Source of the DNA: Owenia fusiformis
Taxonomy: Eukaryota
NCBI GenBank assembly: GCA_903813345.2
Contig: CAIIXF020000001.1
Location: 4,526,001-4,590,000 of the forward strand
Direction of reading: 5' to 3'
DNA length: 64,000 bases
Made by a program: the position numbers and the translations under genes. Shown here in pieces: positions 1-24,000 of this stretch; position 1 is the first letter of the stretch, and each line of letters begins with the position of its first letter. The notes beneath the pieces were generated by a model. The model was not told the origin of the DNA. It worked only from the letters and a program-made list of their open reading frames with translations, and searched no databases.

Positions 1-1990
1 CTCACGAGCTTATGTTGCTATAAAATGTCGAAAAAGGGAAATTCAGAGAATATTTCTTCTGCAACGTGTGTATGCGCAAACACCAGTGCGCAGCTTCCGG
101 TTCTGTAAAATTGGTATATTGTCAGCTCTACCTTCCAATAACTAGAAATAGGTCCTTCCGTGGGAGATAAGAGCCCGAAACAGGAGTGTGTGTACCATGG
201 ATTTATTCAGTTACATACTCCCCTGCACTATTATTACCCACCAAAGGGCAGGCGGGGGACACTCATATTAACCCCCATAATGAACTTGACATTTCAAACG
301 TGGGGTTTGGGCTGATATAAAGATGGCAGCAGCAGTAGAAAAAGTAAAGATACACAGATTTATTTTTCTAATACCATTTAGCCTGTGGATACAAAAATAT
401 GACAGTGACCTAAAAGCAATCAATTCATGACCCAGATACTTAATAATCACGACCTGCTAATTGACACAGACCTACAAATGTGATCAAGGTTAATGGTATA
501 TTTGTTCAACAAAAGTGGAATCAACACAAATATGAATGATTGCATATTTTATTTGATAAATTATATCAGTACAGTGTATATATATTTTAAATAATACAAT
601 ATTTTATAATCAAAAAATATATAATGATTACTTGCATTACTAATTCAAATTAAATTAAAATTTGATTTTTTCCAGATCCCTTCTGAGCAAAACACCTTGA
701 TGTCTACAAAATGTAACAAGCTGAAAGATTTTTTTATTAAAAATCAATACGCATCAGTGTGCAGCCAATCACTTAATGCATCACTTCTGGTGATATAGTC
801 TCCTGATAAGAGCATAAAAGGAAGATGGTCTTACTAATTATTGATGGGTTGAAATGCTTCCTAAGTCAATTTGAAATTCAAAAGTTGAAAGTTACAAAAT
901 AATTTCAATGATCTGCTATATGCTCAAGCTAAATACATCTATTCAATTATGACCAAGGATTCAACAATAATATTGGCAGAAAAATATACAGTTTTTACTT
1001 TTTATGTACAAAAACTCAAAAACATGAGTTTCCCTGAAATTCAATGTACATTTTTCATTGAAATAACGCCCATGGACGAAATAACTGAGGGATGAAAATC
1101 TGGTGACAAAACTGATACATCTGCATGAAGCCTACATTTGCACTACAAGAAGACAGACGTAGACGATTCAACTCGATTACATTACATTAGGTAATTATTA
1201 GGTTTCTATACTGATAAATATTTGTCTCACAAAAGAAAGATACCATTTAATGATATTAACAGTTGAAAATGAAGCCTTGATGTTTTTCACTCTAATATAG
1301 ATATACAATATATACAGGAACTTTGTAATGTATATATTTCATACAATAGGCTAATCAATAAAATTTTGTCTGCAAAAACTAGATACCTTTAAAAAAGACA
1401 TGAAACAGATAGTACAGAGAAACTTGTGATTTTAAAAGTATGATATTTAAATTCATACATATATGTATGTATGGTTGTCAATATGTTCATCATAAAATCA
1501 CCATGACAATCAAACTGTATTACTAAAATATTAAAAAATAAATTAGGCAAAAAACCAATTTGGACGGATTGAAAATATGCATATATTTGCATGCAAAATG
1601 AGATCTCAGATTCAAAACACTATGGAAGTTTTTTTCCAATTTACATTTTACACAAAGTACAGATGTTAACAAGAACAAGGCACATATGGTCCATGATACC
1701 AGTACCAGTAATATAATTGTCTTTGTATTATTGTATACCATATTTTTTCCATGACTATTTCTAAGTACATGTACACTGTTCAGTATATGTAGAAGCACTA
1801 CTAACATTCTCAATATATCCACAAAGTATAGTTAGCACTCAGTCTTCCTATATGTATAATCTCAGTTCTTTTCATACTGGCATGACGAGTAGAATTAAAT
1901 CTCTTTTACATAGTGGTGTCACTATACCACGATCATAACTATTTGGAGAGAAATCGCTGCCATGATAACTGTTACCACGGTGATTTGCTG

Positions 1991-4900
1991 TTAGTTGTAA
2001 TCAAGGTGGCGGGGACTCGCTGCTGTGCGTGACATGGTATGTGATAGACTTCTCATACTGTCTGCTAGTTTTTCAAACTCTTCCCATTTTCTACTGTGCA
2101 TTTCAGTTTCAGTTTCTTTCATTTTCTCTATGCTACCAACTTTATTCTCAAGTGTGAATATGTGGTTCCTTAGTCGTAAAATCTCTTGTTCCTTGTCTTG
2201 TACCTGCAATTTAAGTATAGAACTTACAATTTTAAGTTTTAGAACTATTGATTGAACTATCCCTATCAATTTACAAATCAAGGAACCCATTTACATTTTC
2301 CTTGAATTCTTGTGGCTTGCTCCACTGAATGAGATATTTGTGGAACTTGAAGAATAAATTAGAAATTTACAGATTTGTATATAACTTTTTAATTTAGTTG
2401 AGCTTTAGGTTTTGTTTTATTATCAATCAGTCATTTCATTTCATTATACTGCAAAATTTCAAATGAAGTGGACCCCTAAGGTATGATTATTCAGCTTAAA
2501 CTTATATTTCTTTAAAGCTTTAAATATCTTCAATAGATATTTTTATACCAACAAACAAAAGAGACCCCTAGTCCCTTTGTACAATTTCCCACCTGTTTTG
2601 TGAGCTCAGAGACATGGTCTACAAGGAGCATCTTATCTCTACGCAGTGAAGTGTTCTCACTCTCTGTCACTGAGTGTACGCCTTGCACCTCTGCTAGCCG
2701 TGACTGTGTACTGGACTGATTAAGTTGGATGCTACTGTTCAGTGACTCAGCCTTGGATAGCTGAAACAGGAATGTGACTTGTAAACAACTTATGCACAAC
2801 ACATGATAACTTGACATAACATGTCGGTTTCCCAGAGAAACATCTATTAAGTATCAGCTGAAAAGCACAGCCTGGTCCCCATTAGCCCAACACATAAATG
2901 TTTTTCCCTGACTTGTTCATGACGTGGCAGCCCTGTACAAAGTGTACATGTACTATCAAACTGATACCTAATGTAATGGACTAGATACAAGGAGAAATTA
3001 TCTGATTTTTAATATTCAATATTTAGTAGGGATGGGACGGTTCGTTTCTGTTCGGTTCGGTTTTTCGGATCATCAGCCGTCGGTTCGTTTTTTTGGTTCG
3101 GTTCATTCATTTTAAGGATTTGTATTGATTGACATGATTAGCTGCTTTGTCTCTGACTTCACTGCTGACTATTCACAATATTTTATAGATGGAATTTTAT
3201 GTTATAGTATTTCATGAACAATACATATTATTTAGAATACACGACTAAAGAATATAGTACCAGGGACCACATGATTGATTACCGAGGGATACGAATACGC
3301 GGATACGAAACAAATCTAGTAAACGAGTGAGCTAGCAACAGACAAGACAGACAAGGTAGGGACTAGGAATATCAAAAATGTTGCTGTAAAACAGTGTTTT
3401 TAACTGTTTTATTGATACTTGACCAATGAAATATTAATCCGAAAAGGATCCGAAAAGCTGATCCGAAAGTAGGGCTGTGATCCGAAAACCGATCCGAAGG
3501 CTATGAACCGCGGTTTTTCGGTATTTCGGTTATCCGTCCCACCCCTAATATTTAGTCAAAGTGGTGTAATTTTTGAAATCTTGACACATAAAATCATATC
3601 TAGAAATGTGGTTTTCAAAATCATTTATATCTACTTCGAAAAGTGAATTATCGTTTCTTTTCTTGTACTGGCCAGATAATGTTTTCTTTTACTGGACATA
3701 TTTTCAAATGTATAACTATCAGATACATACGGATAGTTATGAAAAGTGACCTAATAAAATTAGTGAATATTAAACTTTAGAGGAACTTTTCCCTATATCT
3801 GCCACCTAATCTGACCTAAATTAACTACATGATGGTGAAACTGGAAACTTACTACTGGCAGCTTGGTAAATGAACTAGAACTAACCTGTTCCATAAGGCT
3901 CCTGCATCTGTCTTGCTCTGATTGTAGTAAAGCTTTGGTCTGGTTCACCTCAAACTGAATTTGTTTTATCTTCTCATTGGCGTGTACTAATTCTGTGATA
4001 TTCTGTGATTTTCGCACATCTATGTTTTCTCGTAAACTTCTTTCCTAAAATCAAATAAGATACAATTTAGATTATCTTCCCTATATGTGAACTGAAATCT
4101 ATTTCATAACTTAATCATGCTATAGTGTCAGGTCATATACAGTACTTCACATGAACATAAAGTGCTTTAAAATTTGAATAAATTGAGTGTTTGATTTTGT
4201 AACAATTCTGTGCAATTTGTGTTAAGGACATGCCAAAACACTGACAGTCCTCTCATGGACACATACCCTCTCTACTTGGTTCCTGAGCTCAATGACCTGC
4301 TGGTTGAGTAACGAGTTCTCAGATACAAGATGGGAGCTGTCATCTGAGAGTTTTGTGCGGAGGTATCGATCTTGATCTGCCTTCATCTCAGTCTCTTTAA
4401 GTTTCTGTCTTAGCATCTGGACTTCCTCCTAATCATTTAAACAAAACTTAATGTCAACATACATTGATATATCATATATTTTTTTTTTAATCACATTGTT
4501 CAATGTTTTCCGCTGTTCGGCTTTTTATAAAACAACTTTGAAATCACAATACTACTATGACATAGCACTGTATTGTTTCTTACCCTAAGATCATTGACTG
4601 TCTTGTCATGCAATATAACATTGCTGCTGTAATATTTCTCCTCTAGTTCTCGTAGATTAGATTCTGTTCTCAACATGTCTGACCTCTTCTCCTCAAGAGC
4701 AAGCTGAGTTAACTTGTGCTGTTCAATCCTTTGGTCCAACTGAAAATATAATAATATCGTCGTGGTGAATAATGGAATATGTATTTATTACAAATACAAG
4801 AAATCGATTGAAATACATATGCTAGACTGTATATCGATAACTAAAAATGTTAAACCAATAATCATATATTTAGAAAAATAGCCTATTAAAATGCTCAAAC

Positions 4901-7900
4901 ATAATGCATTGTTGTAGTATTCTAATCATACAACTGGAAAGACTTCACAAGTTTAACTGGTACACTCTTTGCGAAACTGCTAAAGTTAACCTAAAATCAT
5001 GCAATAATTTGCTCCAATGGTACTTTTTTCACTATGCCATGTATTTTTCATTTATATAGAAAATGGTCAAATAAAAGTGGACAAGTCGTTTTTGAGACCA
5101 AGGTTTAAGTTTTATTTACAAAATTGTATTTAGTGGCAAATTGATTAACTTTTGATGTGTCATTTTACAATAGTGCCATGTTGTTCTGAAGTTAAAATCA
5201 GATTTGCCGTGGAAACAATGTATGTGCTGACGTTATATCCCTCAAAACATGAAATTTGGGATTTTTTTGGCCTTCATAAGTTGACCAGATACTGTGCATC
5301 CAATCGTAAAAGCACCAGCCTTGCTGTATACAAAGAATAACTTGATCAAACCTACCTGGCTTCTAAGAATTGAGATCTTGTGTTCTGCATTCCTCAAGGC
5401 TTGGGCAGATTTATCCATCTCACTACGAGCCTCTATCATCTGAGTATCTTTCCTTGAGTGTTCCGTCTCTAACATGGTCTTCTCCTTCTTCAGATTCACT
5501 AAATCTTCCATTAAGAGTCTTTTTTCACGGTTGTGTGCATCTATAATGGAATAGTTAAAAGAGTCAGCAACACCGTATATTCAACACCTAGCTTAGATCA
5601 TTCATTTGAAAAATAGGGGGGATTGTTTAAGCTGATATTTGATTGAAAAATCTTATGTACTTCATTTCTATTTACCAATCCAACATATTGTCAAAGTGCA
5701 GACAGTGACTACTGCAGTATTTGTTGCAAAGCTATCTCGGTGGGAATAACATAATTAGTGCTTAATGTATAATATTCAAAACCATACAGTAAAATTTGTA
5801 AAATGAAACACCTCTTTAGTAGAACACATCTGTAAGTGGAACACTTAAGTGAACACTGAAAGTGTTCAACACTACAGGTTTTACTGTATATTAGTTAAAG
5901 TACCTTCCTCTTCCCTGAGACGGTCAAGAGCACGACTCTTTTCAGTAGAGATTGAGTTAAGATTAGAATCCTTCCTTGCAACCTCAAGATGGAGACCATC
6001 GACCTGGGCCTGCATTTGCTACAAAGATATCAACGTATCATCAATAATTATGAATATGGCATGTTTGAGTGCATCGATATAAATGTATTAATGCAAATGT
6101 ATTCACTTGTGAATATCTGACCTAGATTCTAAAGCAAAAATCCATGGGAAAGTGGTTTAAACCAATGGAAATGAAAGTATGAAATCATCAATTTTCATCT
6201 GCACTAATAACATGTTTTTTTCTATATGTATTTTTTTCTAGCAGGAATGCAAATGAACTTTGTACATATACTGGTACATGCTCAACTTACTCTTAGTTTG
6301 CCAAGCATTCTCTCAGCTTCAGCAGACATCTGTGGATGCATATCTGTTGCCTTGCGAGCCTGCTCACGCGTACACATAGTTAAGGAGAAATTATACTTCC
6401 AAGTACTATAGTATCACATGATAAGGTCGCTTCGAAATGTTTAACACTGACTTCTGACTTTTTTTATCATAATATATCTAAATAATTTTTATATTAGTAA
6501 AACAAATTTAGTAATGGATTTATTTAATCTTATTTAGAAGCAGAATGCATAATACAAAATCAAATGGGTTAAACATAACATGCAGTAGGCATGTCAGTAA
6601 ACTTTTTTTGTGAACAGCCAAAACCCATGCACTAATTATACATATAAATCAAGCAAACATGTGGGATGTGGCCGATTCCAATGCTGAGAATAGAGGATAT
6701 AGATGGTTGGCCTCTAGCTCCAGGAAGTAGACCTGCTGTTGTAAGTTCTTGATGTACTCACTCTCCACATCTTTACTGATATCACCCATGCTGTAAGCAA
6801 ACATTGGAACATACAACCGCTAAGCATAAACTAGATAATATGGAGGTAAAGGAACATGTTTTTGAGAGAACCTTTGATATATTAACACACTGCGTCAAAT
6901 TGTAATAATATGTTTTGTAAATAATTTGAATGGAACAATAAGCAATAAAAATATAAGAAATATGTATTATGACCCCAGGGATTACTGCCCCGTTCTTGTT
7001 ATTTTTCCAGGGGGAACTGATTATAACTATTTTTATAATCAATCGGGTAAGTTTATAGTGGGAATGAGATAAATAGTCTCCAAATGATCATAGTTCTACA
7101 ATTTCATGTACAAGTTCTCTTTAAAACGTGTAACTTAAATTCTCTAATATGATATTATAAATGAACTGGTTGGTATGTCTCATAGCATACAACTCCTATG
7201 CTTTAATAAGTTGTTTAAGGGACCATTAGTCAATATTTCTCTTTTCTCTCAAAATATTATTAGCAAAATTTTCAGAGTGACCACCTCCCTCTCCCAAAAT
7301 ACAATTGAACATTTATTGAGTTTTTTCCAATGAAGAGTTGATTCATGTATGTTGAAATCTAATATCTTTTTTTAGCCTTTTCCCAAAATGGAATTAATTT
7401 ATTTTATGGGTGTAGATTGAGCACATATTGACATTGTCCCTAGCCAAGATCTCATTATAACATGCAATTAAAGAAACTGATTTTTCTACTTATCATTCTA
7501 ACATGAGAATGACCTTGGAATCAGGAAAGATTAGCACCCAGTAACCATTTATCATGCTTTTCAGTATAAGAACAGTTTCTCTAAGTTCTAAACAATAACA
7601 TAATGATGAAAATAAACAAAATAGTTCTCATACATTAAAAAATAAAATATGAAAATGTTATAAACATTAAAACCATAACCCATGCTTATACTACAGTATA
7701 TCTATAATCTCAGTGTTCTCCCTATGATTTCCTTCTCAACTGGATGCAAATCTTCTATTTTGCCCTTTCTGACTAAGAAATGTCTAGGATTCCAGTTTTG
7801 AAATTAGATTACTGAATATTTTTTTACACGAATTTTCATTAAGATTTTAACTGCAAGAATACTTAAAAATAAATCTTGCAGCAGGTTCAATGCTGGGGAG

Positions 7901-10900
7901 ATCACTGAGCTTTCATATACTTACAGTACTGTGAAAAGTGAGGGTTACTTATTCAAGGATATAAATATTTGGTCTCAAGTTCAAGGTAGTAAACCTGTTG
8001 TTGAAGGTTTCTGATGTAGTCAGCAGTCACTTTATCAAGGGACTGATCATTTATGCTGGATGGGGACTTGAGCCTAACACGAAAAGTTTAACATAGAAAA
8101 TAATCCATCATCAAAGAATTTTTAAATGAATATTGTAAATGAACTATCATTATGAATACTACCAATATTCATGTCAGTTGTCAAGGGAAATGTGCTTTGT
8201 AGTGTAGGTTTAGGAGTCACAAAACATAGGTGTTTTAGTATGTAAAGACACTTAATATATACTGTTGTTTACAACCAAATATTTTTGGCTTTAGTTCCCC
8301 AAAGATTCAATGAATCACGTCTCACCTGCCAAAGCTTGCTGCCAGGTTACCAGATTTCCTCAGATTCCCACTGCTGCCACTTCTCCTCAAAGACTGAGAG
8401 CCACTTAGATTGTAGCTGTCTGTAACGTAAATAAAATGACACTTATCAAAGTGGACCAATTAAAGTGAGAAGGGTGGAACAATGTTGATACATACCATAT
8501 ATGAATTTGTAAATTACATTAGTGTGACTATATATGAAAGTTTTTTGTTGCCCAAGTCACTACACTCAACCAACATACGCCTTTAACTTTTTTAAACTGC
8601 TATCATGTTTTGTGTGTATTTCTCTAAAAGATCAAGAATTAATTTAGACCTACAGTACACTGTATTTCTGTCAGAGGAATTGCCAAAGATGACTTATAGG
8701 ATGAGCCAGCAAACGTGAAGTACCTGAGGTACTGTACATGTATGGACTTGCTAATATACATATATCAGTGTTTTCAGTAGGTTCGTCCAAGATTGTGTCC
8801 CTGGGACGTAATGATTTTCAAAAAATGCGTCTTCCCTCATAAACTGCGTCCCTTGAAAAAATGCTCCCGGGAATTCAAAGTCACGTTTTTACACTAATCG
8901 AAATAAAATTGATGAAATTTTGTATCGATTTTGCTATTTATCTGTCTAAATCAGTGTCCTGGCGAGTCTAGTACGTCATTGAATGATACAGATACCATCA
9001 CTTTTGAGGTATAACTTATATTCAACCATTAGAAACACATTTTCTTTGCTTTAGTTTAGGGGCAATCTGCGCGAGGTTCAATTTTTTGGTTCAGTTTCTT
9101 GCGCATGCGCATTCTTAAATAATGATCTTGTGATTGCACTTGACCAATAGAAAATGGATTAAATCTGGTCCTCAGTTAACTATTTGACCTATCACATTCA
9201 CGAAATAAAGAGACTGAAGGTAAGTGGATTCACGAAGTGATTTACGAAATTCAAATTGCGTTCCAAAAACGTAATTATTTTTTTAATTTACGTCCACCCA
9301 ATCTTGATTTACGTCCTCTCCATTGAAGGACGCCGTTAATGAAACCTCTGATATATGTACTGATTACAGTATCTACAGTATAGCAGTATATGTACATCTT
9401 GCTGCTTTACTTATAATGATCAGTGTTTTTACATGTATTGTCATGTAGTCTTTAAAGTAGGCTTTGTGAGTTTGTGTACTGTAAAAAACTGGGTGACCGA
9501 CTGAGTACCTAACATTTCTACCAGGGTTCGGGAATTAGAGTTTTCCATTTTATGCCTCAGTAATGCCCAACTGACCTCCAACTCAACGTACCAGGCATAC
9601 AACCAATCAAGCAAACAACCAACAAAGCAACCAACTAATCTAACCAACTGACAAAACAAACATCGATATTCTGTCAATCACACAGGTAATAAATCTAACG
9701 TTGTATTGTACATCGTACATTAATTGACAGATAAAAATGCCAATGATGTTTCATTTTATGCATCCCTAATATGAAACCATTTTTTCTGATATTGATAAAG
9801 TGGCTCATTATTTTAAAAAGTGCTCTTACAGGTTCTTGGTAAAATGATAACGTTTATCTTTAGATATCGAACGGTAGTCTAAACTTGGGAGGCTACATGT
9901 ATGTCTATTTAGTAGGACCTACTCGACAGGTCAATTAGTGACTATATTAGGGGAGAATGTGCAACTTTGAAAGTTGGTAACCCTGCTAGGAACGCTAGGT
10001 ACCCGGTGACCTGGCTACCCGGTTACCCAGTTGCCCAGATTTTTACACAAACAAGTAGTAAAATATGTTATTTAATATTAGGTTTAGGTAGCATGAAGAG
10101 AGGCAAGCGTTATTAGTTAGGCCTATTACAATAATCATTGGACCACTGTCACCTGATTAGTACAACACGGTAAGCTGAAAGTGCATGTACACTGTACATA
10201 TACATATATGTTCAACTGTGCATATAGATGTACATACACTTCATGCATTGCAGTAAGGGCTTTCTAATATAACTTGGAAACCCTTTGATTGTGCATAACA
10301 TCTCTAATACCAGCAATTACCAATGATTATTAAAATGCATAGAGTAGATTCGAAGGATGTAGTAACACATACTACTACATGCATTACAAGCCAGCTGAGC
10401 AAATGGCTAGGATTTAATTAGATAGAAAGCATTTTGTAGATGATGCAGGCGCCAATTGTGCAACACTTTAAGGTCTCATGGAAGTTAACAGGAAATGACA
10501 AAACAAAAAATGACAAAGCCATGCTGGATTTTGAAAATTTTTGAACCAAGATAACAGAGTTCTGTTTGGACCTCCAGTCAGTTTAACTAGTTCCACATAT
10601 CATTTACATGACCGGGAACACAATTGAAATGGTCAGAATGACCATAAACATGATAAAATAACCTTTTCAGCCCTCTGAAAATGTGACTGAAAAATAGCTA
10701 AAAGTAGGTGCTCAGGAAAGGTCAATCAACAGAATCTTTTGATTTTTTCAGAAAATGTGTCCAATATATTGCTCTAAATGACACAATCTTTGAAATTTAA
10801 AAAAATTGTCTGAAACAATAATGGCTGTTGTAAAAAGGAAAATAGATCGATTTTCAATTCAGTTTTTTTAAATTTTTTCTTTTTCTAAGAATGATATCAA

Positions 10901-11405
10901 ATTTGTTTAAATTGTATCATTTAGAGCAATATATTGGGCACATTTTCTGAAAAAGTCAAAAGATTCTGTTCAGTGACCTTTCCTGAGCACAGACTCTTAG
11001 CTATTTTTTAGTCACATTTTCAGAGGGCTGAAAAGGTTATTCTATCATGTTTATGGTCATTCTGACCATTTCAATTGTGTTCCCGGTCATGTAAATGATA
11101 TGTGGAACTAGTTAAACTGACTGGAGGTCCAAACAGAACTCTGTTATCTTGGTTCAAAAAATTTTCAAAATCCAGCATGGCTTTGTCATTTTTTGTTTTG
11201 TCATTTCCTGTTAACTTCCATGAGACCTTAAGCTAACCAACATACCATGCAACCCTAACTAGCTACGAAACATTCACCAACCTCTTGCAGGTGAGTTTGC
11301 AGACATTCTGGGGGACCTCAGTGATTCTTTCCAATTCAAAACAGTTGTGGATTGATCACCAAGTGGCATTGAAATTTCTCTGGAGCGTGACCTGCTTCTA
11401 CTCAT
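1991..11405 (-). CDS. Multi-exon coiled-coil protein gene (521 aa with exon 3a, 514 aa with exon 3b), family not recognised
   Basis: Phase-consistent exon chain: 11282-11405 (MSRSRSRSREISMPLG), 8326-8419, [7963-8073 or 6701-6790], 6291-6369, 5904-6018, 5356-5540, 4584-4739, 4267-4428, 3886-4044, 2593-2760, 1991-2203 (TAA). Product is E/K/Q/L-rich and heptad-like. The intron after exon 3 is AT-AC. Confidence 0.85.
3027..3547. mobile_element. hAT-like MITE
   Basis: TIRs TAGGGATGGGACGG / CCGTCCCACCCCTA; perfect 8-bp TSD ATATTTAG (3019-3026, 3548-3555); subterminal short repeats. Confidence 0.85.
5787..5888. mobile_element. Short Tc1/pogo-like MITE family (related copies ~26287-26465, ~29029-29265, partial ~40880-40982)
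   Basis: TA-CAGTAAAA...GGTTTTACTG-TA ends with internal (t/g)gaacac repeats, recurring in the window. Confidence 0.6.
6370..6386 (-). promoter_or_regulatory. U12-type branch point and AC 3' splice site
   Basis: Minus strand reads TCCTTAAC-tatgtgt-AC|GCGTGAGCAG: consensus U12 branch site about 10 nt before an AC acceptor. The join gives in-frame L-REQARKATDMHP. Confidence 0.9.
6701..6790 (-). CDS. Alternative exon 3b of coiled-coil gene (AG acceptor, U12 ATATCCTC donor)
   Basis: tttgcttacag| MGDISKDVESEYIKNLQQQVYFLELEANH |ATATCCTC; 90 nt, phase 2 at both ends; paralogous to exon 3a. Confidence 0.85.
7711..7907. mobile_element. Small TIR element remnant
   Basis: CAGTGTTCTCCC / GGGAGATCACTG inverted termini (11/12 match); no clear TSD. 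Confidence 0.45.
7963..8073 (-). CDS. Alternative exon 3a of coiled-coil gene (AG acceptor, U12 ATATCCTT donor)
   Basis: ttttcgtgttag| LKSPSSINDQSLDKVTADYIRNLQQQVYYLELETKY |ATATCCTT; 111 nt, phase 2 at both ends. Confidence 0.85.
10472..11227. mobile_element. Foldback element with ~320-bp near-perfect inverted arms, TTAA-flanked (Kolobok/piggyBac-type target)
   Basis: TTAA|GGTCTCATGGAAGTTAACAGG...CCTGTTAACTTCCATGAGACC|TTAA; arms about 10472-10790 and 10910-11227. Confidence 0.85.
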
Positions 11406-12023: not shown

Positions 12024-15000
12024 ATGGCCTTTCTGCAAGTGGGTGTTTTGCTGATTTGCTTACATTTTGGTTAATTGTACACGCAATGACATAATGAATT
12101 ACTAATAAATTATAACATTAGATAACTGACATATTATATTATGAGGTGTGCTATGTAATTAGTGAATACTTGTTTTTTTGGGATCGCTGATTCTGATTTC
12201 ATTGCTTCATATTTCTGTCAAAAAATCAGAAAAATCCAAAATCAAAACAAATATTGACAAAGATGAAAAATCAAAACATTAGCCACCGCCAGCATTTTAG
12301 TTAAGAATGGTTACTTGGACTGAGATTGATCTTTGTAGCATATGCGTTATGTTGTATGTGTTTTGTATGTGTACCTTTCATTACAGTGGCGGCGTTTTAA
12401 CTTCTTTGACAAGGAAGTAGTAAAGGATCCGCAAGATGAGCAAGTGTTCAGCAAATTAAAGGTAAAAGTTTGTCTACTATACAAATAACGAATGCCTGTA
12501 GGCTATTGTAGAAAAATGTAGAAGACAACTGATGTTTTAAACCTTTGTACATTTCTGTAAGTGGAACACCTTCCATCTTCATTCACCGTCTCGGCTCCTG
12601 TTGGTCGATGAACGCAGTAAAGACCGAGTGTACAAAGATGAACACCTTCCAAGTGGATTATTTTCAGAGGTTCCAGGGGGGGGGGGGGTTCGCTCGAACT
12701 CATCAAACTTCGAACTCCCTCCTGGCTACGGGCCTGTAAAACATGTACCTCCATTGCCTTCCATGCTAACAGAAATGAACACATCGAAGTAGACGTATCC
12801 ATTTGATTTTTTTCCCAATTACAAATAATATTCTCGGAATAATCTTTCAAAGTATATATATTTTTAGGACATCAATATATCAGCATGTGCATTTGGTCGA
12901 GGACAGATCATTGTTGGAGACTTTGAAGGACAATTATACTTCATCAACAGACAACTGAAATTATCAGGTTTCAAGGCCTATGAGATCAGAGTGTCGCATC
13001 TATTCCAAATGAAACAGCATAGTATTCTTATATCAATCGGGGTAAGATAATTATACTGCAAACATACATAGACTAACAAAATTGTTATCAGGAGGATCAT
13101 ATGATTTAAAATATGTAGTTTAATGACACACATATTGACAGCACAAAGTGTTCTACACAGGATTTTTCTCAAGTGGGTGCAGATCAAAATATGCCATTTT
13201 CTCATGATTTGCTCATTTTCAAGTGGGTGCAAATCTCAGCCGAGTGCTGCGCATATTTGCTTTAATGCTGGGGGGATTTCTGACACATTTAGTAAAGTGT
13301 TAGATTAAATTACATGTTAAACAATGCCATGATTTTATGTGATGTATTTATTCTTTTATTTAGGAAGATGAAGAAGGTGTAAATCCATTGATAAAAGTTT
13401 GGAATTTAGACAAGGTAATTAAAAATCATATTAAAAAGGTGTTATACATCCAAAGGCCTAAAACTGAATTAAAGATAAATTGTTATTTTGTGTTTCATTT
13501 ACTGATTTTATTTCATGCTTAAAAATGCAAAAACAAAAACACATGCATATTATATAGAGTAACATGTAATTGAAAGAAATTTAAGATATATAAGTTCAAT
13601 ATGAGTTACTATCAATGTTAACTATAATCCTTAAATGTCTGTTTAGGTTGATAAAATGGGAAACCCATCTTGCACCAGGATTGCAAGGGCATCACCCAGT
13701 AGCAAAGGATCAAGGGTGAGGACATGTTATGAATTAGAAATTTTGAGAACAACTCCAAATGCAAATGGATAATTTAAACTATATTTACCACAATATATGA
13801 GTGTATGAATAGAGTCATACTATTTGCATCCATATTAGTCAATTTAATTTTTTATCATCATAAAACATCTGTATTTTTTGGGAAAAAATTAAAAAATGAT
13901 GAATTAAACACTTATTGTTCATGAATATATTAACTACTTTCACAGATTTTTGCTATATAGTTTAGTTACACATGTTTTATTACAAGATACGTGATATTAA
14001 TTCATTATCATAAATTATAAAATCATTTTTATCAATTTTTGAAGCTGGCATTTGAACACTATAGTTTCAATGATAATATACATGTATACTAGTACATATA
14101 TGTATACATGCTATGTTTACTCTTTGTAGGTATCTTGCCTTACAGTTCATGAGAACCTGAACAACATGGCTGTTGGCTTTGAAGATGGGAGTGTGGTGTT
14201 GTTTAAAGGGGACGTCACAAGAGACAGGTCAGCTGCTATACTGTTTACTATAATCCTTTTAATCAAGCTACTTAATGTCTCATAAAGCATTAGTAATTTT
14301 CAACTATTTTTTATTATCATCTTTGCAACTTTATAAACCACAGGGAAGGCCAAAATAAGCAAGTGAGCAAAAATGAATTTAAATATTATTTTCATGTACA
14401 TGTAGTCCTTTATTGTTTTTACTTATCTAGGCACAGCAAGATCAAAATCATCCACCAAGACACCTGTCCCATCACTGGTCTGGCCTTCAAGTCTTCTGGA
14501 AAGAATGCAGTCTTGTTCATAGCAACAGGCTTTAAGATTATCAGTATCAATGTGTCTGTGAAGGACAAAGAGGTGAAATCAGAATTAGATGACCATGGCT
14601 GCCCCATTGGCTGCTCTGTAATGAGTGATCAGAGCCAAGACTTCCAGTTTGTCATTGGAAGGCAAGATGTAAGTACATGTATTGAGTGTGTGAGAAAGTT
14701 ATAAAATTGTCAGTGTTCTTGTGAGAAACTTTTCAAAGTGATATGTCGTCGTCATCTTGTGCTGCTGGGCATACAGGAGTGCTGGGGAAGGATGACTACC
14801 ATATAAATCTTGTTATTAAAACTCAAGGAAAAATGCTTACCTGTACAAATTGAAATTTTCACAGATGCAGACTAGTGCCAAGATCTGATTAGGTTTTGAG
14901 CGTGCTTGGTAAATTACTTGGAACCACTTTGAATTTTAAATGTGTGATATTTATAACAATAGTATATGTGTATTGTTTATTTATATAATTTTAGGCTGTG

Positions 15001-18000
15001 TATTTCTATCAGTCTGATGGTAGGGGCCCTTGTCTGGCTTTTGAGGGGGAGAAATTACAACTTCACTGGTTCAGGGGTTACCTAGTAATCGTAGGGAAAG
15101 AAAGTAAAGCAATGAGATCCTCAACCATGTGAGTAGATGTGAACATAATTTAATAAATCCTTAAAGCTTACATATTGAAGAACGAAGAAATAAAGAGCCT
15201 CAATCTGCACCAAAGTCAATTTTTTGGCAGAATTTTTGAGACCATTGTGTAGGTGATATGTTCATTTTGTTCATTATTTGCTTTCAGTGGGAACCAAACC
15301 ATTCAAATGAACATTGTGACTGTGTATGACATCCAAAATAAGTTTATTGCATATTCTGCTCCAATACCTGATGTCATTGATGTCCTCTGTGAATGGGGTT
15401 CTCTCTTTGTACTAGCAGGGGACAGAAAGGTATGTCAGTCATGTATACTGGATTTCAAATGTTGAACATGTCTAAATTCAGAAATTCAGAATAATGCTTC
15501 CATCAAATTTAATAAGAAAAGTTTTAAGAATATAATTTAACATGGTGTCTTTTAGTCTTTGTATGTACAGTCATGTATTATTATGAAGTTAATGCTTGTA
15601 TTACAAGCCAACTCTTACATTTGCTAAAAAAATAAATTTCAGCTTTATTGCATTAATTTGAAATTATTTACTTTGTAGTTGTACCACTTACAAGAAAAAG
15701 ACACACAGACAAAACTGGAAATGCTGTTCAAGAAAAATCTTTATGTACTTGCAATTAAGTATGTTTTATTCTTATTGATTATATTGTATAAATTCAATCT
15801 GTGAAACTACATTAAGACATAACAATTACTATTTGTAAAGAACGTTTTTTATTCCATTTTACTGACCCTGATGTCCTAATTCTGATGTCAACACAGGTTT
15901 TCTCTTGAAAGATATTACCATAACTTCCTCATCAGGATGTGAAATGAGCAACATTCGAAGAACACTAAAATACTTAAAAGAAAAAATGATATCAACCTTA
16001 TTACCTGTATCAAGCTCTGAAACTGCATAATCTCTGTTTTTAAATATTGCAGCCTAGCCAAGGGTCACTCATATGATGAGGATGGCTTGATTGAGATATT
16101 TCGTCAATATGGCGACCATCTTTACAGCAAAGGGGATCATGATGGTGCAATACAGCAGTATGTGAAAACTATAGGAAAACTTGAGGCATCATATGTTATC
16201 AGAAAAGTAAGCATTAACATGTAATTTCAGAGAATAATTTTAGAGAAAGGGCAAACATTTTGAAAGTATATGATATAAATGTTGTGCTGTACCACAAGAA
16301 TTGAATTGTTATTTTGTATTTTTTAATGTACGGTGATAATCACATGATAATACATGTAGGTATTAGTTTCTGTGAACAGATGTCTATTACACTTTTCATG
16401 TCACCACCAAAAGTGGTGACATATTGTTATTTCTATTTGTTTCAGTCTTAAGATGTGCAGATGGCCTAAAAATCTACCTCATGCTTACAGACGTTTTATA
16501 TTTTCTTGATTCTCATTCACAATACTATGCGTACAACAATCTCATTTGTTTCAGTTTCTAGATACCCAAAGGATCCACACTATATAAATAGTTTCTAGAT
16601 ACTCACTTTATCATGCACAGCATTCTTATTTGTTTCAGTTTCTAGATGCCCAGAGAATCCACAATCTGACTTCCTACCTACAAGCACTACATAAAGCACA
16701 ACTAGCTACAGAAGATCATACAACATTGCTGCTCAATTGCTACACAAAACTAAAAGATGTTTCCAAACTCGATGAGTTCATTATGGTAATGCATATAGTT
16801 TCTGCATCCTAATCATAGCATGTGTTTGCACATCTAACCTTAAATGAGTTTTATTTTGAGAATAATACATGTAGCAACTCATTTATGGCTCACACAGTGA
16901 GCCTATGGGATCATCCAGGCGTCCGTCCGTTGGTCCATCTGTTGATCCGTCCATTGGTCCGTCCGTCCGTCAACATTGGCCGCACAAATTAAAACTGCTA
17001 TTCGGATTGAGTCATATCCACATTCATTTTATGCATATCCATAATGCCTATTTGACCTATCATCGGCCATCGCCATTTCCCAAGTCAAATTTTCTGTAAA
17101 TACTAGACACTTTGTTGAAGTAGAACTTTCAAATAACTTGTAGTAGTTGCTGTATATGCAACTTATGTTCTCTGAAGATTTCAAAGCTCTTGGAATTACA
17201 GTTTTTGGTGTTTACTCTATATTTGACAAAAAGTAGGACTTACTCATTTTCAGGAAACTCTCTCATGTATAAAGTCAATGGCAGGTTTTGTGATTGACAA
17301 GTTTCTTAAAGTTTGCCTTATACTTGTTCATTTCTTGCAATGAATAACATCATTACTAGATTTAAGCATTCCCTACATATTGCTCAGTATATGTCAGCAT
17401 CAAATTTTTACTGTTTTTGAGATATTTGACATCAAAAAACAGTAAAAATAAGTTATTTTTCAACTTGCTTCAATTTAACCAATTTTTTTTGAAAATCATC
17501 TACAAGTTGCCAGGAGTTCAAATCTGACATTAGTTTTAGGATTTGACCTTTACTTAACCTTCAGTGACCTTCGAAAGGTCAAATAAGTTGATTTTTCAAA
17601 TTGACTTTTGGATGTAAATTTTGGTCAGCTTAATCACAAAAGACCGTACTGAGCTCTGAATAAGTAAACTTTTTAAGGTCAAAGCCCATCAAACTAGGTC
17701 ACACAACTGTGCTATCTAAGTTTCTCAAAGTTCCAGACTACAAATCCAAATCAATGTTTTTGTTTGAAAGTTAGGATATACATTCCTCTGAAGGTTCCAC
17801 ACTGTGTGAGCACAGGACCGTGGCTCCTTTATTATTGATGGTCAGCATTTTTTGTACTGGGAATGTAAAAATGTTACACCTGATTGAAAGTACATCTGTT
17901 CCATGTACATTATGTAGATTGATTAATTTTATCATGTAGCAAAATTATTTGAGATTCTTGAGAACATCTACCAATATCAAAAAGGTTTTTTTCACTCCCA

Positions 18001-21000
18001 AAGGTCTACATTGTACATGAGTAGTTGTACTTACATGTATTTCAGACTAAAGATCGGGAGGTTGACTTTGATGTTGAGACTGCCATCAAAGTGTGTAGGC
18101 AGGCTGGGTACTACAAACATGCTTTGTTCCTGGCTAAGAAGCACTCCCAGCATGACTGGTATTTGAAGATACAACTGGAGGACCACAAGGACTACCAGGA
18201 GGCATTGGAGTATATTGGAAAACTAGAGTTTGAGGCAGTGAGTTATAATATATTTGATGGTTGTCATATCACACTGTAAATGTAATAGTCTATGATGAAT
18301 TAATTGTGATGGTAATTACTATGAGTATGATTGCATTATACAAAATATAGCTGCAGAATGTAAGGGAAAAATGGATTTAAATCTTGAGATGCAAAAATTG
18401 TCTTGTCATGAAATGTTTTTGGTTGTTGCAGAACATCTGTCTGAGAGTCCAAGTTGTACTGAACCTAGTATATAATAACTCCATTGGAGATCATTATGTT
18501 CTTGAATCTAGTATTGTTATAGATTTATATTTCAAAACCATCATTCATTCCCTCTACTCTACAATGGTACATTTTTAGACAGAGAATAATGTGAAGAAAT
18601 ATGGTAAGATCCTGGTGTCTGAAGTACCTCAACAGACTACTGATCTTCTCAAACGACTTTGCACAGACTACAAGCCCAGTGATAGTAAGTGAACTAGATG
18701 TTTGTATTATTCAGATAGAATAGGAGACACTGTATATGGCCCATGTTCTGTGTAGACACTTTGCATGGAATTGCTTTTTTAAAATTTGAATTTAAGAAAT
18801 TGACTCTAAGCTTAAATTATTGCTCCTCTATGCATAGCAAAATAGTTTATATTTATTGTTTGTTATTGTACACTTATATGAATAGCACTCATACAGCAGT
18901 TGTACTCCAGCTATTTTCTAAGGGGAAAGTATACTTTTTGGGGTTGGATTTTGACCAAAATGTGTTCTGTCATCAGTTTTGGGCATTTAATTTGGAATAT
19001 GGCAAAAACAAATATTTTTTGGTAGATTTATCCTCAATTTTTGTTGAGAAAATATAACATGTGATGTGAAACCATGATTTTCATAGTCTAGCTACAAGTC
19101 CTTATGAGCCCCCCCCCCCTCCCCACTGCACACCTTCCAACATGTGTTGCGTTGGTGAAGTAGATGAGGGGGTCCACTACAATTTTTATTAAAAGAACAG
19201 TTGAAATTAAAATCGAATAGTCCAATCCTGCCCCCTGTGCCTAAGTAGATGTTATAGGAATCTATGTCATGAGCTTACAAGGTACTTGGTTACATTTTCA
19301 TAAATAACTTTATCACTACTTTATTACTTTTGACATTTTTTAGTTCCCATTGTGCATTATTTTATAAGCTCAGGCTCCAGGCCCAGTCTTAAATAAAATT
19401 TTTACTCTGTTTTTACATGCTCCTGCTTTATTGGGTGTTTGTTTATTGCATTGCGGGTCATAAACATTGAAAGTACATACCTGTTAACATGTATATGTTA
19501 TTATGTCACCACCACAATTGGTGACATATTGTTATTGTCTCCAACTTTTTTGTGTTCAACAGTTGGTGTCTGGCAGTCAGTGTGTGGTGTGTCTGTAACA
19601 AATGGCATGTGATCACATTTTGCATGTTAATGCCTTATACGGGGGTATATACATTGTATTCCAAAAATGATAGCTAGTCATTTGTGAAGTTAATTGGATA
19701 TTAACCAGCAAACTAGTTCTTTTTAAGTGTTTATGTCTCATCTTTGATTGTATGTTTGTGCATACATTGTATGTTTACTGAATGTGTTGTCTAACTTTTC
19801 TCTTTGCTTGTTGTTCTTCAGAACCTTTGGTGGATGCTAGAACATTAGAAGGTACATATATTTCCCTACTATGTACTTAAATTATTCTCTACATGTTGTA
19901 TTAGCTATAAGGTGTGGTTTTTAAGCTCTCACAGGAGGTATTTTATTGCCCTGTTTTATTGATATCAAATTATTTGATGAGTAACTTATCCTTATGTTTT
20001 CAGTCATATGAAAAAATATTGTTTTCATAATGGCCCCAGTTTTAACCTCAGGATTCAACATTTTCCAGTCTCATGAAAAATGATAACAATAAAACCTATG
20101 TGAGCTAAATAGCTATATGCTACTATCAATTTACATATGGTGTTGCATGCATGTTAAAACATAGCAATCATTCAAAAGTCTACCATACTTTTGTACTTCA
20201 ATGCATTTTTTATATAGTGATAATTTTTTGAACTTGCCTGAAATCACTTATTAATTTCTAAACTGTATATGCTTTTTAAGTCCCTTCAATGCATAATAGA
20301 TAGCAATTTATCTCCTGTTCCCCATTCATAACTGAAGTATTTTTTGTTTCCCCATTTGATATGTTCATATTACATTTTTTCAATGATTTTATGTCATTTA
20401 TAATCAATCTAATGTTGTTATTGCTTTGCCTTTTTCATTATTCATTTCTTATATACTGGTACATCTTTCTTATCTCTGTATGCAATTTGATATCCATGCA
20501 TGTGATAAATAATCTATTTTATTTATTTTTTGCATTGTATGTTCATGTATTGATGTAGTCAGGTTTCCTAAGACAAGGGAGTTGTTTAGCCCAATTTCGT
20601 GTTAGGGATGGGGCTTGGATTTTCTAATCTATCCATATTTTGTACTTTAACATCTGTACTGTTTGATTTTTTTAGGAGAAATTCCCAAAATATTAAAAGC
20701 CAATGCTGAGGAATTTATTCACATTTTTGTCAACAATTCGAAGAAATTGACAGAGTTTCTTGAGCATATGGTTAGGGTAGGTCATTTCCAATACATTCAG
20801 TCAACATACACGTATTTTCTGGATATTATTTTAAAGATGTGTCTTTTTTTTTAGTTATCATTTTGAAATTTAATTTTGAGATTCATTTTCCAAACATTCA
20901 TGACATAGTCAGAAACTTTAAAATTTGCAATTTCAAAAATTCAAAATCATGTACACTCATGTATGTATAGGACTTCCCTTTCTATCTTTTAGCTGCAACC

Positions 21001-24000
21001 AGGTTCTAACAGCCTTGTTTACAACACTCTGTTGGAGTTATATCTGCATGATTATGTACATGAACAGAATAAAACAGTAAGTTGATTGAGGTTGCCTCCT
21101 TTGTTTTACTACTAAATTCTGCACATAATCGCTTTCATTTTAATGCAATACAGCAGTGCAAAGTATAGGATTTAATATTGTAGAAGTCTAAAGTATACAG
21201 CATAACTATTGACAAATAATTTTTTATTTTATACTATACTATAGTATAAATGTATTGACTGCTGTCCTCTCATCAAGTTTTTATTTGTGAATATAATAAT
21301 TGAATCAACACATGTACATGTATATGGACTTTACTGTTTTTAGTACTGTTTTATGGTGACTCTGAACTTATTCTTATTTCTAGGTCCAGGAATCAAAGGG
21401 AAAGATAACATTAGACTTGCTTCAAAATCAAGATGTAAGTTCATCTTTTCAATGTAGTTGAGGAATATAGTTGCATTTCTGAATTGAACCATATAAAATC
21501 AACGAAGCTTAAAAGTTTAAAGATCCAAGTTAAAACTACACGTCCCTCAAATCTAAGCCATTGCATTTGCATTGAGTTTGGTATGTTATATATACTGTAC
21601 TTTTATATAATACAATGAATGATTCCAGGCTGGCTATGATATTGACCAGGCCTTAGTGCTGTGCCAGATGAATGACTTTAAACCTGGCATTCTTTACCTC
21701 TATGAGAAGGCTAAACTGTAAGTTGTGAGTGAATAGCAAGTACACATCCTTCTCATACATCTATTATATCACTATGTTAGGCCGTTTATTAGGTTCTATA
21801 AGTCAGTTACCCTTTCAGAAAAACATAATTTAATAATTAACAAAATATTTTGATCCTTCCTGTACCATGTATTCTACCATAATATGTAAATATCCACATA
21901 TGAGTTTGAAAAATATTACCTCTCATATTTTATTGCAAAAAGTAATCTAAAATTGACTTGATGTAAGATTATAAATGTCCAGCCACTGGTCCTTGGAAGT
22001 GATTAATTGTGCACACAGCATTGTCCGTAGGGAGTTATCTTCTCTCTGATGTATGCCTTATCAGTACATTCATACGCTTAGGATGTTCCACGGATCCTGC
22101 AATATGTCAAATTAAAAATACTATATGAGATTGTTGTTTGTGATATCCTTTCTTTATTTTTCTTTATTTTCTTATTTATCTGCAGGTTTAAGATATTTAA
22201 CTAATAAAATGTATGAACATAGAGATTATCATATATGAGGTTCCGGATATTGGAATTATCCTGAGGACCTACAGCCCTCGGGCAGATATATTATATTGGC
22301 CAAGGTCTGTTTATCCCATACCAATTGTACAGTAATTATGCGAACGTTACAAAAATGAACAAATATGCGAACGGCAATTATGACGTAGCGGGCAGATTAA
22401 AAGTGATCTTGTCTTTCAAGTGATCTGGTCTCACTTTTCTAAATTCTGTATCTTCTTTTAAGTATTACACTAGCCTGTTATTTTCTACATGCTCTTCTAA
22501 CATATTGTCTATACAGTGCATACAATTTGAAGAGTGTGAACTGTGAAATCCATTTTATCTCATTCCAGAGATCTATGACATCCTAATCGCATCACAAATG
22601 ACCTAAAAATGGTGGTCATTAGGACTTTGAAATTTTTCATTTTCATGATATTCCTGCTCATTTACTTTAACAATGGTTGTCTAAGGACCCCCTCTGTGAC
22701 TGTTACTGATTTTTTCATATACTCATTTTTCCAAAAATTAAAGATAAGTTCATACTTGATCTGTTCGGCATGCATATTGGACAGCATTTCCCTTTGGGAA
22801 TGTACAAGCGTCCATTACAATGGACATAAAGAGGACAGTTACTAATATGGCATTTTCGGCTCCGCTTATGTTGCACTGTAATTCCTGCAATATGATACAA
22901 ATATTTCATTCTGTTGAGATGAATTCTTTGTACAGTATAGCCCTACATGTAGGTATTCCCTTACATCTAAGAATGGCAAGGGAGTATCGCCTCATCTAGC
23001 TTCATTAACCATGTGACCCTGTTTTGACCAATCACACAATTACAAGATGATATTGATATACCGAATGTCAGATCATTTTGAGTGATATCAATTTTATTAT
23101 ACAAGTTAATATCAAATACATGTACCAACAAGAGTGAGCATAGCGAATGAATGTTAATATTTGATATCTACTATGTGATTAAATAATATCAGAAGAAATT
23201 ATTGGATATTGGGTTCATCCCATGATTACAATCAAAATTCAAATAGATATTTGCTTGTTTTACCTTCAAGCCCTGCAAGTGTTTTTGTTCTTTTTATAAG
23301 GCAGCCATTATAGTGTTTTGAATCTACCACCCAAAATTTGTTAGTTAATCTCATGATATCAAATGAACAAAAAATTATTCATGCATATTATTTTGCATTT
23401 TTCTGTGTCCCACCTTTTGATCAGACTAACCTTGGCATTCCATTAGGCAAAACACAATGCAAATTGCACCAATGAAGATCCTCATTGTACAGCTTCAATT
23501 AAGTTGAGTTGTGCCGTTTTGCGTTAACTTTCTCCTACAGGTATAACGTTGTTCTGAGTCAAAGTCAAAAATGAAATGCATCTGATTAATAAACCTTCTT
23601 TTATATTCCTCTACAAAGCTCTGAATTCTGTTGTATCGTGAATAAACATAATATTACTATTGTTCAGGTATTGTCTGTGACATTAGATAATTTCACTGTG
23701 TCATAGTTTTACTTGTATAACCCATCAAATAAGATATAGATAATGTTCCTGTCCATTTGTTTGCATTTATTTTATCCCCTCTGTAACTTATCTATTTATA
23801 TCCAAAAATTAACTCAAATATGGCCAGTCCAATATTCTGCCAAACTTTATTTGATTTGATTTTACAGCAAAGCTCTGATCAAGATGAATTTTCAAAAATC
23901 TTTTTTAAAAACTATTATGATTGTATGTTTTCTATGAGATTATATACACACTAGCATTGTCATCATTAAGTTGTGTAGTACTTTGGAAAGCTCATGTCAT

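What the first reader, a model, noticed from the sequence alone, without database searches (positions are those of the whole stretch)
6291..8419. Duplicated exons made mutually exclusive by U2/U12 spliceosome incompatibility (two AT-AC donors, one AC acceptor)
Seen: exons 3a (7963-8073) and 3b (6701-6790) are paralogous (YIRNLQQQVYYLELETKYL vs YIKNLQQQVYFLELEANHL) and both phase 2/2. Each starts at a pyrimidine-AG acceptor and ends in a U12 donor (ATATCCTT / ATATCCTC). I see only one U12 branch point plus AC acceptor, before exon 4. Known: the major and minor spliceosomes do not normally join each other's sites, which is the mechanism described for the alternative exons of vertebrate JNK genes; few such cases are described. 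Inference: 3a cannot splice to 3b, so the gene is hard-wired for two isoforms, an independent origin of this arrangement in an uncharacterised invertebrate coiled-coil gene. Peptide conservation despite DNA divergence suggests both exons are used.
Basis: partly seen in the sequence, partly recalled or inferred. Interest (0 to 1): 0.92.

Follow-up and report, generated by a model that had tools for sequence, protein, structure and literature searches.

The report
Duplicated exon before a minor intron
An annelid coiled-coil gene carries two diverged copies of one exon, each ending in a rare minor-spliceosome splice site; this layout, known from vertebrate JNK genes, should force a choice of one copy, but only one copy is so far seen fully spliced.

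Summary
On the minus strand, exons 3a (8073-7963) and 3b (6790-6701) are paralogous and keep the frame. Each follows an AG acceptor and ends at ATATCCT(T/C). Only one consensus U12 branch site (TCCTTAAC), 10-11 nt before an AC acceptor, lies ahead of exon 4.

The gene matches an Owenia fusiformis protein at 100%. It belongs to an unnamed coiled-coil family found across animals. Its AT-AC intron at this codon looks ancient, and the exon duplication looks lineage-specific.

RNA-derived contigs show exon 2>3b in 3 runs and the AT-AC joint 3b>4 in 2 runs (plus loose ends in a third). Exon 2>3a appears in 1 run, at about 5% of the 3b depth. No contig shows 3a>4. The one contig holding 3a runs 111 nt past its AT donor.

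Sequence evolution argues that 3a is functional: synonymous sites are near saturation, dN/dS is about 0.1, and the donor is conserved while flanking intron is randomised.

The layout equals the JNK (MAPK8/9) and TMEM87 arrangement, so this is a new member of a known kind. Productive two-isoform use is likely but unproven.

The parts
8326..8419 (-). Exon 2 (constitutive), ends in phase 2
   Evidence: tblastn of P0003; joints 6790>8326 and 8073>8326; sequence
8320..8325 (-). U2-type donor GTGAGA of exon 2
   Evidence: Sequence; joint ends CT..AC on + strand = GT..AG
8074..8100 (-). Pyrimidine-rich tract and AG acceptor of exon 3a (U2-type)
   Evidence: Sequence; joint 8073/8326 in run X3, depth 22, 1 contig
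7963..8073 (-). Exon 3a, 111 nt, the diverged paralogous copy; not in the deposited protein
   Evidence: Translation; paralogy; dN/dS; covered by X3 record 21
7955..7962 (-). U12-type AT donor ATATCCTT after 3a; use not shown
   Evidence: first 7 intron bases identical to those after 3b while the next 33 match at 7 positions
7852..7962 (-). Intron stretch that stays attached to 3a in the one contig holding 3a; read in frame it gives Tyr-Pro-stop after the exon
   Evidence: X3 record 21 covers 7852-8075 without break, depth 26.8; sequence
6846..6853 (-). One-mismatch branch-site look-alike TCCTTTAC in the 3a-3b intron, AG 16 nt later; no use seen
6791..6810 (-). Pyrimidine tract and AG acceptor of exon 3b (U2-type)
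   Evidence: Sequence; joint 6790>8326 in X1, X3, X5
6701..6790 (-). Exon 3b, 90 nt, the canonical copy used in the deposited protein
   Evidence: P0003 residues 54-84; 84% identical to the Lingula core peptide against 61.5% for 3a
6693..6700 (-). U12-type AT donor ATATCCTC after 3b; used
   Evidence: Joint 6369>6701 with ends GT..AT on + strand = AT..AC in X3 and X5; matching loose ends in X1
6379..6386 (-). The only consensus U12 branch site TCCTTAAC in the locus
6370..6371 (-). AC end of the U12 intron(s)
6291..6369 (-). Exon 4 (constitutive), followed by GTAAGT

Best explanation
An ancient AT-AC (U12-type) intron follows the exon that encodes the family's most conserved motif. In the Owenia lineage that exon was duplicated in tandem together with its U2 acceptor and its U12 donor.

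The result is an interlocked unit. The U2 donor of exon 2 can pair with the AG acceptor of 3a or of 3b. The AT donor of 3a or of 3b can pair only with the single U12 branch site and AC acceptor before exon 4. Three products are excluded by mixing major and minor sites: 3a joined to 3b, both exons in one mRNA, and both exons skipped. One copy is therefore chosen.

3b is the default exon. 3a is a minor, sample-restricted alternative whose completion depends on removing a 1593-nt minor intron.

Shown: the sites, the paralogy, joints 2>3b, 3b>4 (AT-AC) and 2>3a, and selection on the 3a peptide and donor.

Inferred: that 3a is joined to exon 4, and that site incompatibility (rather than another mechanism) enforces the exclusivity.
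For: 1. Sites and phases are as described.

2. The deposited Owenia protein P0003 joins 6701 to 6369.

3. All 9 introns of the 3b form appear as joints in X3 and X5. X1 shows 8 as joints, and the AT-AC one as loose ends that match exon 3b and exon 4. Eight introns have GT..AG ends; only 6700-6370 has AT..AC.

4. Exon 2>3a is joined exactly at 8326/8073 in X3, at depth 22 against 402 for 2>3b. The intron just upstream of 3a is uncovered there, so this is spliced RNA and not DNA. X2 shows no joints at all and serves as a DNA-like control.

5. Over the 19 aligned core codons there are 14 nucleotide differences, 9 of them at third positions. pS is 0.68, pN is 0.15, and dN/dS is about 0.10. Fisher p=0.001. 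Only 0.8-0.9% of 100,000 random placements of 14 changes keep at least 13 of 19 residues with no stop.

6. The first 7 intron bases after both exons are identical, the next 33 match at 7 positions, and the 40 bases before the acceptors match at 13.

7. The minor intron is old. 107 of 117 relatives carry the motif. Four mis-predicted models (amphioxus, a frog, two cnidarians) run on after it as Leu-Tyr-Pro. That is what reading through RTATCCT gives in this phase.

8. The same layout drives exclusive exon choice in MAPK8/9 and TMEM87A/B (passages read).
Against: The only contig that holds 3a (X3 record 21, 223 nt, depth 26.8) runs unbroken from the 3a acceptor through the AT donor to 7852. In that sample most 3a-containing RNA is therefore unspliced at the minor donor.

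No contig of the 4 runs carries 7963>6369. Contigs can drop rare forms, so this is weak evidence. However, a link of about the same depth as the surviving 2>3a link would probably have survived too (inference).

Read through, 3a ends in Tyr-Pro-stop.

No 3a-type isoform was found in the protein collection. The Owenia cluster has one member.

The selection test rests on only 19 codons.
Confidence: 0.58

Rival explanations
1. 3a is a regulated unproductive or truncating exon. The major spliceosome joins exon 2 to 3a, but the long minor intron behind 3a is rarely or never removed. The RNA keeps the intron and meets a stop two codons after the exon. It is then either held or degraded, which lowers output of the gene, or it makes a protein of about 90 residues that ends with the conserved motif.
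For: The X3 contig runs from the 3a acceptor through the donor into 111 nt of intron, at the same depth as the 2>3a joint. The read-through frame gives Tyr-Pro-stop. Depth behind 3a (about 27) is as high as the retained part of the 3b-4 minor intron (bin 6380-6603, 13.7) although 3b mRNA stands at 402. A truncated protein would still put the 3a peptide under selection.
Against: The AT donor after 3a matches the U12 consensus at 8 of 8 bases while the surrounding intron is randomised. That is hard to explain if the donor is never used. The exon keeps a length divisible by 3 and phase 2 at both ends, which a terminal or poison exon does not need. Contigs cannot show that the completed form is absent.
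Confidence: 0.24
2. 3a is a decaying relic of an old exon duplication, and the single 2>3a joint is splicing noise.
For: 3a is absent from the deposited protein. It was seen in 1 of 3 spliced runs at about 5%. It is the more diverged copy: 61.5% against 84% identity to the Lingula core.
Against: With synonymous sites near saturation, a neutral copy should have lost its frame, peptide and donor. Instead there are 37 open codons, 13 of 19 core residues are kept (p about 0.008), dN/dS is about 0.1, and the donor is a perfect ATATCCTT.
Confidence: 0.08
3. The AT donor-like site after 3a acts mainly as a U11 binding site. By exon definition it activates the upstream AG acceptor, in the manner of the U11-dependent splicing enhancers of SNRNP48 and RNPC3. 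It is not a site of cleavage.
For: The donor motif is conserved, the upstream acceptor is used, and no cleavage at the donor is seen. Such enhancers are described (passage of PMC6865273).
Against: [quoted passage not shown] Here there is a single site at the exact homologous exon end, in the right phase, after a peptide under selection.
Confidence: 0.05

Closest known systems
Vertebrate JNK genes (MAPK8/9/10), alternative exons 6a/6b (7a/7b in later assemblies)
   Same: Two duplicated, frame-preserving alternative exons. Each has a U2-type 3' splice site and a U12-type 5' splice site. There is one downstream U12 3' splice site. The intron between the copies is a U12-5'ss/U2-3'ss hybrid that cannot be spliced (passages of PMC1874599, PMC8329584, PMC3584512).
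   Different: An unrelated gene (a coiled-coil protein, not a kinase) in an annelid, so the origin is independent. The exons differ in length (111 and 90 nt). Both JNK isoforms are shown in mature mRNA with tissue bias and Nova control; here only the 3b form is seen complete.
TMEM87A/TMEM87B exons 11/11a
   Same: A U2 acceptor embedded in a minor intron gives exclusive choice of two equal-phase exons, with tissue-dependent use (passages of PMC6717393 and PMC8329584).
   Different: Different gene and lineage. There RT-PCR showed both forms.
Human mutually exclusive exon clusters with U2/U12 incompatibility (Hatje et al. 2017)
   Same: The same class of mechanism: 5 of 629 clusters (passage of PMC5740500).
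   Different: The survey covers human only. Which five clusters they are is given in an appendix figure that I did not see.
Drosophila prospero / Urp twintrons
   Same: Competition of major and minor spliceosomes at one locus in an invertebrate (passages of PMC3291851 and PMC3584512).
   Different: Twintrons are nested introns at one position. They are not duplicated exons chosen exclusively.

Membership tests
U12-type AT-AC intron (3b to exon 4) | 5' splice site /ATATCCTY | tested here: met
   ATATCCTC at 6700-6693
U12-type AT-AC intron (3b to exon 4) | Branch site TCCTTRAY about 10-15 nt before the 3' splice site (spacing rule recalled), and an AC terminus | tested here: met
   TCCTTAAC at 6386-6379, AC at 6371-6370, branch A 10-11 nt away
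U12-type AT-AC intron (3b to exon 4) | Intron actually removed at these ends | tested here: met
   Joint 6369>6701 with AT..AC ends in X3 (depth 402) and X5 (167); loose ends in X1; protein model P0003
U12-type AT-AC intron (3b to exon 4) | Dependence on U11/U12/U4atac/U6atac snRNPs | not testable with these tools
   Needs knock-down or in vitro splicing
JNK-type exclusive exon pair by U2/U12 incompatibility | Two adjacent homologous exons that keep the frame | tested here: met
   111 and 90 nt, phase 2/2, reciprocal E 6e-8 and 1.5e-7
JNK-type exclusive exon pair by U2/U12 incompatibility | Upstream constitutive U2 donor, and a U2 acceptor before each copy, both used | tested here: met
   GTGAGA after exon 2; joint 2>3b in 3 runs, 2>3a in 1 run
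JNK-type exclusive exon pair by U2/U12 incompatibility | U12 donor after each copy, both used | tested here: inconclusive
   Both motifs are present. The 3b donor is used. The 3a donor is not seen used, and one contig reads through it
JNK-type exclusive exon pair by U2/U12 incompatibility | Only one U12 branch site/acceptor, downstream of both copies | tested here: met
   A single consensus match in 6291-8420; one 1-mismatch look-alike that is not at the 3b acceptor
JNK-type exclusive exon pair by U2/U12 incompatibility | No mRNA with both copies or with neither | tested here: inconclusive
   No such joint in the contigs of 4 runs, but contigs show presence, not absence
JNK-type exclusive exon pair by U2/U12 incompatibility | Both isoforms present as mature mRNA | tested here: inconclusive
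   The 3b form is complete in 3 runs. The 3a form is seen only up to its donor. No 3a protein in the collection
Named coiled-coil families (paramyosin, ELKS/CAST, ODF2 and others, as in automatic names) | A family profile match above threshold | tested here: not met
   Pfam best hit 17.4 bits against a cut-off of 40. No family for 3 of 4 relatives; the fourth has a far sub-threshold match, 19.1 bits against a cut-off of 100. No PDB relative. The Atlas gives only generic coiled-coil look-alikes

The most novel reading that the evidence does not exclude
An independently evolved JNK-type interlock of major and minor splice sites in a spiralian. Exon 2>3a splicing is fast, but completion waits on a 1.6-kb minor intron. 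Output of the 3a isoform would then be gated by minor-spliceosome activity, giving a stage- or tissue-specific isoform switch built into a pan-metazoan coiled-coil gene. It would be the first such case outside vertebrates that my searches could find.
Probability: 0.3. Interest if true: 0.65.

Novelty: new member of a known kind. Interest (0 to 1): 0.45.

Why it matters
Exclusive exon choice enforced by incompatibility of the two spliceosomes is documented for very few genes, all vertebrate in the papers I could find. A second, independent origin in an annelid would have three consequences:

- It would show that the arrangement arises readily whenever the exon upstream of a minor intron is duplicated.
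- It would give a natural comparison for how the choice between copies is regulated.
- It would flag a deeply conserved, unnamed coiled-coil gene whose most conserved motif is the part being varied.

It also shows that gene predictors mishandle this AT-AC intron in several phyla.

Tried and rejected
Tools that gave nothing or were unavailable:
- No whole genome is held for this window, so other minor introns and snRNA genes of the organism could not be surveyed.
- The run search failed six times as busy and was answered.
- No RNA holder is listed on record; the runs' kind is a guess. That X1, X3 and X5 are RNA-derived rests on their spliced joints.

Absences in the contigs laid. Contigs cannot show absence:
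- 3a has no cover in X1 and X5, although their contigs join across it.
- No joint 7963>6369, 7963>6790 or 8326>6369 in any of the 4 runs.

Searches for a 3a-type protein or a family name:
- The 37-aa 3a peptide was too short for the protein search.
- The 44-aa stop-to-stop frame over 3a found nothing among longer proteins. Only 7 candidates were collected, so this is weak.
- Isoforms of other species showed no second version of the exon. Of 42 further cluster members, 38 carry the motif. No genomic DNA of other animals could be searched, so an unannotated copy elsewhere is not excluded.
- Pfam, PDB, the Atlas, Rfam and tRNA scans gave no family.

Sequence checks:
- The DNA repeat finder saw no repeat of 30 nt or more in 1900-8600. 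The two exons are too diverged at DNA level for it.
- Motif counts alone are at chance level.
- I considered the internal CAG|GT sites within both exons as U2 donors. No joint uses them. The truncated Capitella model looks like a predictor's use of such a site.

Literature: six searches found no invertebrate exclusive pair of this kind and no paper holding both 'Owenia fusiformis' and 'minor spliceosome'.
Full report
**What is in the sequence**

All features lie on the minus strand.
- Exon 2 (8419-8326) ends ...GGCAG and is followed by GTGAGA.
- Exon 3a (8073-7963, 111 nt) follows a pyrimidine-rich tract ending in AG. It is followed by ATATCCTT.
- Exon 3b (6790-6701, 90 nt) follows ...ttgcttacAG and is followed by ATATCCTC.
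- Exon 4 (6369-6291) is preceded by TCCTTAAC (6386-6379) and by AC (6371-6370). The branch adenosine therefore sits 10-11 nt from the 3' splice site.
- Both alternative exons are multiples of three and are in phase 2 at both ends.

The two peptides share a core of 19 residues, 13 of them identical. Reciprocal tblastn in the window gives E=6e-8 and 1.5e-7. The next best hit in the 64 kb has E>=0.29, so there are two copies and no third.

The donor 8-mer is not over-represented in the window: 9 matches against 7.8 expected. What is non-random is its position. It sits at the homologous codon of both copies. The consensus branch motif occurs once between exon 2 and exon 4. A one-mismatch look-alike (TCCTTTAC, 6853-6846) with an AG 16 nt later is 40 nt upstream of the 3b acceptor. 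I calculated by hand that using it would shift the frame (inference).

**Which gene**

One exon matches at 100% a 495-residue 'unnamed protein product' of Owenia fusiformis, P0003. P0003 maps onto 11 exons of the window's minus strand and uses 3b joined to exon 4, that is, the AT-AC intron.

The family has 118 members at E<=0.001 among the candidates scored. Source names place them in annelids, a brachiopod, nemerteans, molluscs, echinoderms, a hemichordate, amphioxus, tunicates, cnidarians, a bryozoan, a rotifer, amphibians, a lungfish and a lizard.

No profile family fits. Pfam's best hit is 17.4 bits against a cut-off of 40. There are no threshold-level hits for four relatives and no solved relative. 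The Atlas gives only generic coiled-coil look-alikes. The automatic names (paramyosin-like, ELKS/CAST-like and so on) should not be trusted.

**The minor intron is old; the duplication is not**

Of the 117 relatives, 107 carry the motif found by my pattern. In nearly all of them it is followed by Leu-Arg. Four mis-predicted models (amphioxus P0079, a frog P0098, Nematostella P0107, Stylophora P0108) continue instead as Leu-Tyr-Pro. That is what reading through RTATCCT gives in this phase. The Capitella model stops the exon at an internal CAG|GT. I take this as indirect evidence for a U12-type donor at this codon from cnidarians to chordates. The genomes themselves could not be read.

Exon 3b is the canonical copy: 84% identity to the Lingula core against 61.5% for 3a.

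I read the 90%-identity clusters of 10 representatives. Of the 42 further members, 38 carry the motif. Within each species every isoform has the same version of the exon. So no other annotated species shows a second copy. Unannotated copies cannot be excluded.

**Selection on 3a**

Over the 19 aligned core codons there are 14 nucleotide differences, 9 at third positions. pS is 0.68, pN is 0.15, and dN/dS is about 0.10. Fisher's test on synonymous against non-synonymous gives p=0.001. Only 0.8-0.9% of 100,000 random placements of 14 changes keep at least 13 of 19 residues without a stop.

The first 7 intron bases after both exons are identical. The next 33 match at 7 positions, and the 40 bases before the acceptors match at 13.

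An old duplicate that kept its frame, peptide and donor while its surroundings were randomised is not a neutral relic. The sample is small (19 codons).

**RNA evidence**

The run search listed 12 runs of one organism from 3 studies. All are kept as contigs, and their kind is only guessed. I laid 4 of the 12 (X1, X2, X3, X5) on 1900-8600.

- X2 shows no joint at all and has low, even depth in introns. It behaves like DNA and serves as a control.
- X3 and X5 show all 9 introns of the 3b form as joints.
- X1 shows 8 as joints. For the ninth it has loose ends at 6369 and 6701 whose letters match exon 3b and exon 4.
- Eight introns end GT..AG. Only 6700-6370 ends AT..AC. So the 3b>4 minor intron and the 2>3b joint (depths 1535, 402 and 167) are confirmed.

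The predicted 2>3a joint (8326/8073) is present in X3 only: one contig, 27 letters on the shorter side, depth 22. That is about 5% of the 2>3b depth in that run.

X3 record 21 (223 nt, depth 26.8) begins at 8075. That is the junction plus the two letters AG shared by exon 2 and the intron. It runs without break through 3a and on to 7852, 111 nt past the AT donor. The intron just upstream of 3a has essentially no depth in X3. This is therefore RNA spliced at the 3a acceptor and unspliced at the 3a donor. Read in frame it ends Tyr-Pro-stop.

No contig in any of the four runs carries 7963>6369, 7963>6790 or 8326>6369. Contigs drop rare forms, so this is not evidence of absence.

**Reading**

The layout is exactly the one reviewed for MAPK8/9: 'two U2-type 3'ss and two U12-type 5'ss' in an interlocked configuration (passage of PMC8329584). 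The hybrid intron between the copies 'cannot be properly spliced' (passage of PMC1874599).

The same principle is reported for TMEM87A/B (passages of PMC6717393). It is also reported for 5 of 629 human clusters (passage of PMC5740500). The list of those five is in an appendix figure I did not see.

The most likely history is a tandem duplication of the exon upstream of an ancient minor intron. Such a duplication automatically copies a U2 acceptor and a U12 donor and yields this interlock.

I put 0.58 on a true two-isoform exclusive pair, with 3b as default and 3a as a restricted alternative. I put 0.24 on 3a being mainly an unproductive or truncating exon whose minor intron is not removed. The remaining rivals are a relic (0.08) and a U11-binding enhancer (0.05).

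**Novelty**

Six literature searches and the passages read show vertebrate cases and insect twintrons. They show no invertebrate exclusive pair of this kind, and no paper holds both 'Owenia fusiformis' and 'minor spliceosome'.

This is a new member of a known kind. It is neat and probably of independent origin, but its key prediction (3a joined to exon 4) is still open.

Noticed in passing
window 12868-28822 (+ strand): A VPS11 gene lies head-to-head with the coiled-coil gene. Three open frames match PEP5/VPS11 N-terminal and clathrin-repeat profiles (E 1e-9 to 1e-20).
   Followed up: partly
window 3020-3915 (intron between the exons at 2591-2760 and 3886-4043): Contig depth is 5-13 times that of the gene's exons in X1 (12,500-20,100 against about 1,500). 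Many loose ends (3170, 3175, 3547, 3553) recur in several runs. This is probably an interspersed repeat or a separately expressed element. There is no Rfam or tRNA match.
   Followed up: partly
window 6380-6603: The 331-nt minor intron between 3b and exon 4 keeps some cover in the spliced runs (X1 32, X3 13.7), while the bin 2348-2571, which lies inside a major intron, has none. This hints at slower removal of the minor intron. Contig depth is a poor measure.
   Followed up: no
P0079, P0098, P0107, P0108, P0072 (relatives): Deposited gene models of amphioxus, a frog, two cnidarians and Capitella are wrong at this intron. They either read through as Leu-Tyr-Pro or cut at an internal CAG|GT. These look like predictors that do not allow AT-AC introns.
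   Followed up: partly
window 10418-10582 (-) and 11099-11236 (+): Two open frames in intron 1 share a long identical peptide stretch on opposite strands. They look like inverted copies of a repeated element.
   Followed up: no
window 26607-26777 and 27700-28098: An (AACC)n microsatellite of 43 copies and a 141-bp tandem repeat of 2.8 copies at 98% identity lie inside the VPS11 locus.
   Followed up: no
window 6828-7051 (3a-3b intron): This bin has raised depth in X1 (366), X2 (54) and X5 (65), with loose ends at 6890 and 6949-6950. It is likely another repeat and not an exon.
   Followed up: no
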